NCBI RefSeq assembly: GCF_037042905.1
Contig: NC_087252.1
Coordinates: 5,334,001 to 5,398,000 of the forward strand
Reading direction: 5' to 3'
DNA: 64,000 bases
Source of the DNA: Lytechinus pictus
Taxonomy: Eukaryota
Part shown: positions 14,312 through 16,711 of the stretch, piece after piece
Position numbering within the stretch: position 1 is the stretch's first letter
Layout: each line of letters starts with the position of its first letter
Notes under the pieces: model-generated
Databases searched by the model: none
What the model was told of the DNA's origin: nothing
Seen by the model: the letters and a program-made list of their open reading frames with translations, nothing else
Position numbers and translations under genes: made by a program

Positions 14312-14696
14312 AATATAAAGACACCGAAAGAAGCAAGACGAATGGGATATCCATGGTAGTCGAAAATAATGACAATGATGATGAACCTGACCAAGATACC
14401 GAAACTAGGGAGGCGGATGGGATGCTAACGACAGCCGGGTATAATGGTGATGATGAAGCTACCCAATGCAGGAGAAAGAACAATTGTTGGTGTTCGTGTG
14501 GGAACTGTCCTGTGATGCAGACTGATGAAGAAAGCCTCTGTTGCCGTGAACTCAAGAGATGTCGGGAAATCCAGACCAATGGATGTATCATTGATTCTAA
14601 CAGAATAAAATTCCTTTGTCTTGACAAACCATCTCTGCGTGTGTTTATCTCTTTAAGGAGCAAAGACCATCAAATTCCCGGATATATGGAGAACAA
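14312..14696 (+). CDS. Ig-ballast receptor copy 1, acidic linker + N-terminal half of P2X7-type ballast (Zn-coordinating Cys) domain
   Basis: tttcttcag|..AAC AA|gtaaga, phase 1-2. WCSCGNCPVMQTDEESLCCRE...GCI parallels P2X7 WCQCGxC..EELCCR..ACI. Confidence 0.87.
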
Positions 14697-15091
14697 GTAA
14701 GATCTTATCATTAATATAAAGGAAGGAATAATTCAAGCTGAAAGTTTTAAGTAATAAAGAGATAAAAATGTAATATAAAACAAAATTATGAAAAAAGACA
14801 ACAAACAATAAAATATCAAAGATAAGTAGTAATGATAATAAGATAATAAAAAGAGATTATCATGATAAGGTGATGAATACGGAATATGCTTTTGAACGTG
14901 TCTGAACACAAAATCTATTTATGTTTCAATAGCAGCTGTGAATAATGCTCAAGTCCACCTCCTGGACTGTTGTATGATTTTTCTTTTTATTTTGTACATA
15001 AATTGACAGTACTTAAACATAAAATCCTCCCCCGACTCACAGACAGACATACACACCCTAACACACATTCGTACGGACGTGAATGAGTTAA

Positions 15092-16059
15092 GGTCCCCTC
15101 ACACCTAACCAAATTGCCTGAAATATGCCTTGCGATGGCTGGCGAAAGGCATTTTTTAAGAAATCACTTTCAATGGTAAATTATAGAAACTCATATTTAC
15201 CCTTCGCGTTTGGGCTCGTACACCTTCTGAACTAACAGCTGCAATTATTCAAATTCGTGCGAAATTTTGAACATGTTTGAAATTTCCCGACGAAATGAGA
15301 AATCGTTGGTCATCTGTTTGAATTTGCATCTCTTATTTACTCTGCGGTAATTGTTAGTTTATCATTCGTGTTTTATTGTCGCGCATAGTCCCTCATCGCG
15401 CTCTTGCCAAAGTGGACCGATCACGAAAGAACCCGTAACGAAGCAACACGATAACACAACGAACAAGATTGCCCGATCTATTCCCTCGTCTTCGTTTCTG
15501 ATCGCACGCCATATCAAACCATTGCTCACTGTTCCTTCATCTCATTGGGTTATATCAACCCTTCGCTCGCCTTCGGCCGCATTTTTCTCAAAGAGGTGAA
15601 CCAAAAAATCGATATCCTTCGCATGTCATATTTATCCTTCGCTTACCGTCCGTTGATAAAATTTGATAATAGATACTGATCGCTATGATTTGACTGAAAT
15701 TTTATTTGAATTCGTTGAATTCGCGTGCATTTCGTTCATTTTTCCCATCCTTCGCATGTCATATTTATCCTTCGCTTACCGTCCGTTGATAAAATTTGAT
15801 AATAGATACTGATCGCTATGATTTGACTGAAATTTTATTTGAATTCGTTGAATTCGCGTGCATTTCGTTCATTTTTCCCATCCTTCGCATGTCATATTTA
15901 TCCTTCGCTTACCGTCCGTTGATAAAATTTGATAATAGATACTGATCGCTATGATTTGACTGAAATTTTATTTGAATTCGTTGAATTCGCGTGCATTTCG
16001 TTCATTTTTCCCATCCGTCACCCTTCGCCCGTCTACATTCGGTCAGGTGTGAGGGGGCT
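15092..16059. mobile_element. Kolobok-like non-autonomous DNA transposon in the intron splitting the ballast domain
   Basis: ttaa|ggtcccctcacacct ... aggtgtgagggggct|ttaa: TTAA on both sides, short TIRs, purine-purine start. Confidence 0.72.
15614..16016. repeat. Tandem repeat, 3 x 133 bp, apparently identical copies
   Basis: Unit starting atccttcgcatgtcatatttatcc at 15614, 15747 and 15880. Confidence 0.92.
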
Positions 16060-16509
16060 TTAAGAGATGCACGGGACGTAGGTGTCGGGTTTCCCATCGC
16101 AACCCATAAGCTAGATTTAGCTCGATGTGCGCTGCCGCATCCCGCAAGCACCACCCTTGGGCAAAAGAATAGTACTATAGAACACCTGAGTGGCCATACC
16201 AACGCATTATAGTACGCGATGTTTGCACACGCATGTGCAATATAAAAAAAAAGTGTGTGACTTTGTGCCTGCTTGATCGTTTGACCTGTTGGAGTACTTT
16301 TGTGGACCAAAAAGAGAGTTGTGCTCTATCATATCGATGGATTTTCCCAATCATTAAAAATCGTCCAGGACGTGGACTAATCTATCTGAGCTTTGCCCTC
16401 CCTGGCTGATTATCTCGCATTTGTAATTGCTGCATTAGGTTGTACTCAGGGCAATCTCTATATTTGTATTCTTATGGATCTTTTTTATGATGTCCCATGG
16501 CCTTTTCAG

Positions 16510-16711
16510 ATCATATCGGTTTGCCGCTTTTAGGATTTGGTCAGATTACTTGCACGGATACATGGGTAAAGGAGTTCGATGGCCTCTTCCAGCCTGCGTG
16601 GTGACACGAGTGCGTCAAGAGTTCCACAATAAGACAGGTGTCTACGCTGGCTTCAAATTTGGGAAACATGGGAAAGTTGGAAAGGTAATCGAAATGTCTC
16701 AACTTTTTTAA
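16510..16711 (+). CDS. Ig-ballast receptor copy 1, terminal exon: C-terminal half of P2X7-type ballast domain
   Basis: ccttttcag|A, phase 2 matches the previous exon. SYRFAAFRIWSDYLHGYMGKGVRWPLPACVVTRVRQEF..GVYAGFK parallels P2X7 LRHxAYR..LPSCCRWxIRKEFP..GQYSGFK. Stop TAA 16709-16711; AATAAA at 16824. Confidence 0.88.

What the first reader, a model, noticed from the sequence alone, without database searches (positions are those of the whole stretch)
14485..16660. Zn-ligand cysteines and nucleotide-pocket motifs of the ballast appear retained
Seen: WCSCGNC (3 Cys), LCC (2), GCI (1) and LPAC (1) map by eye onto the seven Cys of the P2X7 dinuclear Zn site. The nucleotide-pocket segments align as YRFAAFR (P2X7 LRHxAYR), VRQEF (IRKEF) and GVYAGFK (GQYSGFK), with H>F and Y>F changes. 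Inference: the fold is maintained, but guanine-nucleotide affinity may differ, giving a natural variant for studying the poorly understood function of the ballast.
Basis: partly seen in the sequence, partly recalled or inferred. Interest (0 to 1): 0.7.

Follow-up and report, generated by a model that had tools for sequence, protein, structure and literature searches.

The report
Transposon zinc tail on urchin receptor
These exons encode the inside-the-cell tail of a spliced sea-urchin immunoglobulin-type surface receptor; the tail, likely captured from a jumping gene, keeps all seven cysteines that would bind zinc in the unexplained 'ballast' of the mammalian P2X7 receptor but only two of its five GDP-gripping residues, so it is a second natural setting in which to test what that domain does.

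Summary
Observation confirmed; interpretation half right. Exons 14312-14696 and 16510-16684 encode a P2X7-ballast (PF20478) domain. All seven zinc cysteines align with rat P2X7, a paralogue's model matches only P2X7 (Z 12.2), and omega among five paralogues is 0.40 (p 1e-4 against 1). The GDP pocket is not P2X7-like: R546 and R578 are kept; H547, R574 and K583 are not. That pattern is general in invertebrate ballast proteins and was published in 2020, so H>F is ordinary. The unusual changes are Y550F and A567W: 0 of 95 free homologues carry either, and three sister paralogues keep Y550. The larger point is context. The domain is the cytoplasmic tail of a type I Ig receptor; a 0-difference transcript contig joins the transmembrane exon to the ballast. 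The gene sits in a five-copy cluster with no transposase. Its ballast nests among this genome's Kolobok KolX genes and shares their intron, so it is likely a capture independent of P2X7. A frog MHC-I-like database model suggests a third. The scan noted this fusion before (e1-8152551, same stretch; e1-8152567, neighbouring DNA); I found it in no paper. Zinc and nucleotide binding are untested.

The parts
6952..7269 (+). Ig V-set exon of the receptor (gene g1). Its signal-peptide exon is inferred by homology at G000:C8:5325042-5325105, about 9 kb before the window
   Evidence: Open frame, AG/GT ends; PF07686 on P0006, which is 96% identical here; signal exon 81% like those of the paralogues. The V-to-C and signal-to-V joints were not among the listed RNA joints
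8670..8923 (+). First exon of the second (C-type) Ig domain; database paralogues use an acceptor 6 nt earlier
   Evidence: X1 contig 8661-8891 with 0 differences
9586..9691 (+). Second exon of the C-type Ig domain
   Evidence: RNA joints 8929>9592 (approximate) and 9690>13332 GT..AG
13333..13461 (+). Transmembrane exon with basic stop-transfer residues
   Evidence: Hydropathy peak 3.1; X1 contig joins 13459>14310 GT..AG, 388 nt, 0 differences, specific to g1
14312..14696 (+). Acidic linker (about 58 aa) and ballast exon 1 with six zinc-site cysteines (14491, 14497, 14506, 14539, 14542, 14584)
14697..16509 (+). Phase-2 intron inside the Lys codon before SYR; same position as in this genome's Kolobok KolX genes of one lineage. 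Holds a 133-bp unit three times
   Evidence: RNA joint 14696>16510 GT..AG
16510..16684 (+). Ballast exon 2: seventh cysteine (16595) and pocket positions R546 (16517), H547F (16520), Y550F (16529), A567W (16580), R574V (16601), R578 (16613), P582H (16625), K583N (16628). Read-through of the donor would stop at 16711
17476..17541 (+). Last coding exon (21 aa and stop)
   Evidence: Homologous to the last exon of P0004; X1 contig ends at 16684; organism B loose end at 16684 reads into this exon. The joint itself lay outside both laid stretches
48343..59907 (+). Second paralogue g2: signal exon 48343-48409, V 56096-56428, C 57314-57567 and 59802-59907; its transmembrane and ballast exons lie beyond the window (C8:5408221-5410309)

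Best explanation
The two exons encode a P2X7-type ballast domain that is spliced onto an immunoglobulin-type membrane receptor as its cytoplasmic tail; it was likely captured from a Kolobok transposon's KolX gene, is predicted to fold around a two-zinc, seven-cysteine core, and likely works as a docking module for signalling rather than as a high-affinity GDP site like mammalian P2X7's. Shown: exon structure, the splice from transmembrane exon to ballast, five open paralogues, seven cysteines, purifying selection, absence of a transposase nearby. Inferred from trees and a shared intron: a KolX gene of a lineage still present in this genome came to lie behind the transmembrane exon of a V+C Ig gene and took the place of its tail; relatives of that Ig gene carry coiled-coil/ubiquitin-like, death-like or P-loop GTPase-like tails instead. 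Inferred mechanism: ligand or cell contact clusters the Ig ectodomains, which brings the zinc-stabilised tails together and recruits an intracellular partner. The two kept arginines (R546, R578) are nearly invariant in KolX proteins and would still hold a phosphate-bearing ligand, probably more weakly than in P2X7. The g1/g3 branch has further remodelled the pocket (Y550F, A567W). My odds per step: fusion real and transcribed 0.95; KolX origin 0.9; zinc bound 0.9; tail acts as a docking or signalling module 0.55; micromolar GDP/GTP binding 0.3.
For: RNA joints 9690>13332 and 13459>14310 in X1, the latter in a contig identical to g1 and at least 11 and 38 letters away from the other paralogues in its two exons; the same joints in organism B. 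Five paralogues with open frames of 481-499 aa. Database models with V-set and PF20478 together. Omega 0.40 for the ballast against 0.85 for transmembrane plus linker. Model and fold match. 18 of 26 other PF20478 loci lie tail to tail with a transposase match within 12 kb, none in the 384-kb cluster region; two such element families have terminal inverted repeats and TTAA flanks. Fused ballasts form one group (SH-aLRT 100) inside a group with this genome's KolX genes (98), with the same intron. Ectodomain tree: ballast-bearing genes are one group (99), sister to genes with coiled-coil tails. R546 in 94 of 95 and R578 in 93 of 95 free homologues.
Against: No partner, ligand or phenotype is known, so the signalling step rests on architecture and analogy. 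Omega 0.40 is moderate, and comes from paralogues that may have exchanged sequence (g2 and g5 are identical in both Ig domains). The L. variegatus model P0005 skips the segment with six of the seven cysteines. g1 in this assembly carries P582H at a position that is P in 85 of 95 homologues. Expression is patchy: three raw-read runs of organism A, about 6% read, show exon depth under 1. The tree is a quick one on 145 columns, and sisterhood with the C16 KolX has only 82. The B1>B2 contig in X1 matches paralogue g3 letter for letter in exon 1, so that joint is shown for the g1/g3 type, not for g1 alone.
Confidence: 0.55

Rival explanations
1. The tail binds GDP/GTP much as the P2X7 ballast does, and the receptor is regulated by guanine nucleotide. 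It would then have swapped one guanine-nucleotide tail for another, since distant relatives of this Ig family carry a P-loop GTPase-like tail.
For: R546, R578, L569, Y588, G590, F591 and K592 are kept. Rump et al. argue from models that invertebrate domains may still bind GDP. GTPase-like tails (Pfam MMR_HSR1, E 7e-7 and 9e-5) on P0159 and P0014.
Against: H547, R574 and K583 are absent. A567, a GDP contact in P2X7, is W in g1/g3. The P2X7 pocket also uses helix 9 of the neighbouring subunit; the profile alignment to P2X7 starts at about residue 460, and that helix 9 lies before it is my recall. The closest non-ballast sisters have coiled-coil tails, not GTPase tails.
Confidence: 0.2
2. The tail is a stable, folded passenger: it was kept because it gives the receptor a tolerable C-terminus, or affects its trafficking or half-life, and has no ligand or signalling role.
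For: Omega 0.40 is of the same order as in the Ig domains (0.57, 0.58); stem branch of 0.64 changes per site after capture; P0005 model lacks most of the zinc half; fusion seen only in Lytechinus records.
Against: All seven cysteines and both arginines survive the long stem and the paralogue split; the ballast is more constrained than the adjacent linker; organism B transcripts keep the cysteine segment.
Confidence: 0.2
3. The ballast exons are a separate KolX-derived gene or transposon remnant, and the Ig link is read-through or an annotation artefact.
For: Database models split three of the copies into Ig-only or transmembrane-plus-ballast proteins (P0006, P0002, P0003).
Against: In-frame GT-AG joints from C exon to transmembrane exon to ballast in two organisms; same order in 5 of 5 copies; no transposase match in 384 kb.
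Confidence: 0.04

Closest known systems
Vertebrate P2X7 receptor, cytoplasmic ballast (PDB 6U9V; Pfam P2RX7_C PF20478)
   Same: Same fold (Z 12.2, rmsd 2.9 A, 118 aligned, 29% identity), same seven cysteines, C-terminal cytoplasmic position behind a membrane helix, and KolX origin (Kojima and Bao 2022).
   Different: Host is a single-pass V+C Ig receptor, not a trimeric ATP-gated channel; no P2X domain; 2 of 5 GDP residues; ballast split by an intron (one exon in P2X7); the calmodulin motif I541-L545-W556 reads E-Y-Y here (counted).
KolX of Kol0-lineage Kolobok DNA transposons (Kojima and Bao 2022, PMC9587614)
   Same: Nearest relative is a KolX of this genome (P0016, 45% identity to P0001; at C16:10.816 Mb, 6.9 kb from a facing transposase). 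Shared intron; KolX-type pocket (V at 574, non-K at 583).
   Different: No transposase or element context; fused to signal peptide, Ig domains and a membrane helix; Y550F and A567W in g1/g3 occur in 0 of 95 free homologues.
Nanor and stand-alone ZCD proteins (Rump et al. 2020, PMC7016195; PTHR36981)
   Same: Same cysteine clusters and the same R546/R578-only pocket; a sea-urchin member was already in their alignment.
   Different: They describe these proteins as typically short, without other domains and without a transmembrane region, with only TolA and THAP exceptions. This one is a membrane receptor.
Sea-urchin V+C Ig receptor family on C8 (database names 'nectin-2-like', 'nectin-4-like', uncharacterized)
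   Same: Homologous ectodomain and membrane helix (46-66% identity to P0001); P0008 lies about 170 kb upstream.
   Different: Their tails are coiled coil with ubiquitin-like (P0008), weak death-like (P0010, E 0.04) or P-loop GTPase-like (P0159).

Membership tests
P2RX7_C / ZCD ballast domain (PF20478) | Profile match over the curated cut-off | tested here: met
   Exon 1 alone 31.1 bits against 23.5; exon 2 alone 22 (under); full-length paralogue P0001 70.5
P2RX7_C / ZCD ballast domain (PF20478) | Three cysteine clusters giving seven conserved cysteines | tested here: met
   7 of 7 in g1-g5; aligned to rat and mouse P2X7. The exact list of seven ligand numbers is recalled from McCarthy 2019, which I did not read; clusters and count are
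P2RX7_C / ZCD ballast domain (PF20478) | Ballast fold | tested here: met
   Model of the g3 domain (P0004 stretch; 10 nonsynonymous differences from g1 in 120 codons): pLDDT 92, only P2X7 matches
P2RX7_C / ZCD ballast domain (PF20478) | Two zinc ions bound | not testable with these tools
Mammalian P2X7 GDP site | R546, H547, R574, R578, K583 | tested here: not met
   R, F, V, R, N: 2 of 5 (list)
Mammalian P2X7 GDP site | Measured GDP/GTP binding | not testable with these tools
   No tool scores ligand binding
P2X7 receptor | N-terminal P2X channel domain with two membrane helices | tested here: not met
   Upstream exons are Ig V, Ig C and one membrane helix; no P2X family among the 6 Pfam matches of P0001
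KolX gene of an intact Kol0 Kolobok element | Faces a DDD/E transposase gene inside the element | tested here: not met
   No transposase match at E 0.01 in C8:5274001-5658000; met for 18 of 26 other loci
KolX gene of an intact Kol0 Kolobok element | Terminal inverted repeats, RR...YY ends and TTAA target duplication around the gene | tested here: inconclusive
   Seen for two free element families. For the fused genes I only compared DNA with one element, which matched coding parts at 60-66% and a common repeat; no direct search for decayed ends
KolX-derived (domesticated) sequence | Nests among KolX proteins and shares gene structure | tested here: met
   Group support 98 in a quick tree; acceptor directly before SYR in 8 of 13 free loci printed, donor confirmed for the C16:10.816 Mb gene
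Type I Ig-superfamily receptor | Signal peptide, Ig domains, one membrane helix, cytoplasmic tail on one transcript | tested here: met
   C>TM>ballast joints in RNA contigs; signal and V exons joined by homology and by database models P0004 and P0005, not by a listed RNA joint

The most novel reading that the evidence does not exclude
KolX is a transposon module that animals have domesticated at least three separate times as the cytoplasmic tail of a surface receptor: on a P2X4-like channel (P2X7), on a sea-urchin Ig receptor (this cluster) and on a frog MHC class I-like protein (Hyperolius, XP_068105447-50). It is then a general signalling tail with one conserved output, carried by the zinc core and the R546/R578 site, and the urchin paralogues with F550/W567 against Y550/R567 are a ready-made pair for finding that output.
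Probability: 0.3. Interest if true: 0.85.

Novelty: new variant of a known kind. Interest (0 to 1): 0.62.

Why it matters
The function of the P2X7 ballast and of its zinc and GDP sites is stated as unknown in the reviews and papers I read, and in P2X7 it cannot be separated easily from the channel. A ballast on a single-pass receptor can be deleted, swapped or mutated with no pore involved, in a sea-urchin genus used for knockouts (search listing). It also shows a transposon accessory gene being recruited to a receptor tail a second time, with its donor lineage still in the genome.

Tried and rejected
Single-sequence fold of full-length P0001: pLDDT 38, unusable. Homotrimer of the ballast with GDP riding along: no verdict, score 0.00, not evidence either way. 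No RNA holder was listed as RNA on record; X1 and X5 are 'RNA?' guesses, which I accept as RNA because they show GT-AG joints and X5 has no cover over most of the TM-to-ballast intron. My note that reads 'correct' P582H to Pro was withdrawn: those contigs match paralogue g3, so whether H582 is a private allele is open. IQ-TREE did not print omega, so I wrote an M0 likelihood. The careful ballast tree did not finish; the quick tree is reported, no test_one_clade was run, and P2X7 was not in it. Apparent element ends were a common nested repeat; true ends came. A search for relatives of the frog fusion found only itself among 2382 candidates. No residue-level text on the seven zinc ligands or on Y550's role in the pocket was found in PMC8410900, PMC9859053, PMC9574498 or PMC12436592. 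Considered and rejected: a P2X7 orthologue (no channel domain); H>F as a special variant (18 of 95 free homologues have F).

Full report
Observation. Both match Pfam P2RX7_C at consecutive profile positions (31.1 and 22 bits, cut-off 23.5). Single-exon searches of the PDB gave P2X7 on top but weakly (E 0.014 and 0.1). A profile of 98 homologues finds four PDB sequences, all P2X7, at E about 1e-24. In the rat and mouse alignments the seven cysteines fall on C477, C479, C482, C498, C499, C506 and C572; the human alignment slips at LCC, where human has an extra cysteine. That these seven are the zinc ligands rests on the count of seven in Kojima and Bao, the three clusters in Rump et al. and my recall of McCarthy 2019, which I did not read.

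Zinc site. All seven cysteines are present in 5 of 5 paralogues and in 90 of 95 free homologues. An alignment-based model of the g3 domain has mean pLDDT 92. Foldseek gives 14 matches at E under 0.001, all P2X7. The wide search gives rat P2X7 at Z 12.2, rmsd 2.9 A over 118 residues, next best Z 3.2. The model is of g3, which differs from g1 by 10 nonsynonymous changes in 120 codons. Among the five paralogues the ballast has omega 0.40 (likelihood ratio 14.8 against omega 1, p 1.2e-4); V 0.57, C 0.58, transmembrane plus linker 0.85 (p 0.45). Counting methods agree: 0.46, bootstrap 0.30-0.75, over g1-g4.

Nucleotide pocket. Rump et al. list R546, H547, R574, R578 and K583 as the rat GDP contacts and report that invertebrate domains keep mainly R546 and R578. 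This gene has R, F, V, R, N. Among 95 free homologues: R546 94, R578 93, H at 547 only 9 (Y 31, F 18), R at 574 none (V 84), K at 583 two. So the pocket is the ordinary KolX type, and the extra P2X7 contacts look like vertebrate additions (inference). What does stand out: Y550 is Y in 94 of 95 and never F; position 567, a GDP contact in P2X7 by the passage in PMC9859053, is never W. g1, g3, P0001 and the L. variegatus model P0005 have F and W; g2, g4 and g5 have Y and R. g1 also has P582H in this assembly. The P2X7 cavity includes a helix from the neighbouring subunit, which this tail probably lacks. I put micromolar GDP binding at 0.3.

The gene. Upstream on the same strand lie an Ig V exon, two Ig C exons and a transmembrane exon; with a signal exon 9 kb before the window and a last exon at 17476-17541 they give an open 498-aa type I receptor. 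Run X1 has GT-AG joints 9690>13332, 13459>14310 and 14696>16510. The contig over the second joint is 388 nt with 0 differences and fits g1 only; the one over the third matches g3 in exon 1, so it stands for the g1/g3 type. Run X5 of organism B shows the transmembrane-to-ballast and ballast-to-ballast joints and covers the cysteine segment in three variants. Of eight runs laid, two show joints in contigs; one raw read of X11 crosses 14696>16510; the rest have little or no exon cover. Joints from signal to V and V to C were not among those listed (37 more were not shown). Five copies with the same exon order lie in C8:5.32-5.61 Mb, all open; g2 and g5 share about 44 kb at 98-99.8% and may be haplotypes. 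Database models with V-set plus PF20478 exist as 'uncharacterized' proteins of Lytechinus pictus, on a contig of the same length as G000:C8, and a partial one in L. variegatus. The automatic model of g1 itself stops after the Ig exons (P0006).

Origin. Kojima and Bao showed that KolX, the second protein of Kol0 Kolobok transposons, has the ballast fold and is the likely source of the P2X7 tail (passages). In this genome PF20478 has 35 matches, a lower bound; 5 are in the cluster. The other 30 reduce to 26 loci, and 18 of 26 face a transposase match within 12 kb (I entered 29 of the 94 transposase matches, one per site). Two element families show near-identical dispersed copies with inverted ends and TTAA flanks. 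The cluster region has no transposase match. In a quick tree of 98 domains the six fused rows form one group (100) inside a group with five KolX genes of this genome and one unnamed protein (98); the nearest is P0016 (82, weak), across a long stem. Eight of 13 free loci printed have a splice acceptor directly before SYR, as in the fused gene, and the C16:10.816 Mb gene has the same phase-2 donor; four read straight through and one print missed the site. The ectodomain tree of 20 rows puts the seven ballast-bearing rows together (99), sister to genes with coiled-coil tails, within a family whose other members carry death-like or GTPase-like tails. So one capture onto one Ig gene, then tandem duplication, is the simplest history.

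How it likely works. A receptor family that swaps cytoplasmic modules, a tail kept under selection, and two arginines conserved since the transposon stage point to a zinc-stabilised docking module switched by receptor clustering. Ligand, partner and output are inferred, not shown. Rivals are P2X7-like GDP regulation (0.2), a folded passenger (0.2) and a mis-joined gene (0.04).

Novelty. Cysteine retention and the two-arginine pocket in invertebrate ballast proteins are published (PMC7016195), as is the KolX link (PMC9587614). Rump et al. found these domains typically without a transmembrane region. Nine library searches listed no paper whose title or abstract start describes an Ig-ballast fusion; subscription papers are not covered. 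Of 154 proteins held, 123 carry a ballast and 6 have a membrane helix before it: five Lytechinus models and one frog MHC class I-like model, which has four annotated isoforms and falls outside the urchin group in the tree. Only the best 150 of 1158 library hits were seen, so other fusions may exist. The scan's own notes, opened after my reading was formed, already hold this fusion; they are not independent support.

Papers seen: PMC9587614 passages; PMC7016195 parts 2 and 3 of 6 and passages; PMC9574498, PMC8410900, PMC9859053 and PMC12436592 passages; the others as search listings only; McCarthy 2019 recalled. I read no supplements; the alignments in those of PMC9587614 (Figure S6, Data S6) and PMC7016195 (Figure S4) could bear on the residue counts and on whether fused forms were listed.

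Verdict. The motif claim alone would rate about 0.3. As the tail of an expressed receptor, captured separately from P2X7 and with a testable pocket pair among paralogues, 0.62; new variant of a known kind.

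Noticed in passing
P0029 and P0155-P0157 (XP_068105447-50, Hyperolius riggenbachi): MHC class I-like protein (Pfam MHC_I, C1-set) with a membrane helix and a ballast domain with all seven cysteines; a candidate third capture. Database model only; no relatives found.
   Followed up: partly
G000:C8:4.24-8.46 Mb (12 V-exon matches): The Ig family carries different cytoplasmic tails: coiled coil with ubiquitin-like (P0008, C8:5.151-5.165 Mb), weak death-like (P0010), P-loop GTPase-like (P0159; resemblance to IFI44 is my recall). GTPase-like tails also occur in Diadema records by eye (P0017, P0019).
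   Followed up: partly
G000:C1:8.172-8.188 Mb with C16:1.286-1.303 Mb; C19:7.714-7.730 Mb with C15:21.004-21.020 Mb: Two young Kolobok families, about 16 kb, copies 97-99% alike, with long open transposase frames, KolX facing them, inverted ends and TTAA flanks.
   Followed up: yes
G000:C8:7525143 and 7530595 (L001, L002): Two intronless stand-alone ballast genes 5.4 kb apart with no transposase match nearby; possibly a separate, nanor-like domestication.
   Followed up: partly
G000:C8:5298619-5298797 and 5616513-5635158: Orphan signal-peptide exons of the family with no V exon found after them; remnants of further copies at both ends of the cluster.
   Followed up: no
window 14704-16387: Repeat in the ballast intron, with a 133-bp unit three times (15614-16019); reads of X8-X10 lie on it almost all with the first mate on +, from other copies.
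   Followed up: no
window 7711-7942 and 42604-42835: Very abundant short repeat; the copy in the V-C intron ends in a motif followed by TTAA near 8010, like a non-autonomous Kolobok-type element.
   Followed up: no
window 1458-4591 and 24133-26961, minus strand: LINE-type reverse transcriptase and endonuclease frames, by eye; the first is in pieces, the second has 598- and 343-aa frames.
   Followed up: no
window 34665-35030, minus strand: Fragment with a DRY motif, like a rhodopsin-class GPCR exon or pseudogene, by eye.
   Followed up: no
window 40143-41514: Tandem array of a 38-bp unit, about 35 copies.
   Followed up: no
P0120, P0132, P0136, P0018: Database proteins joining a ballast to THAP, to a Tc1-type helix-turn-helix or to transposase-like sequence; likely real or mis-joined transposon genes.
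   Followed up: no
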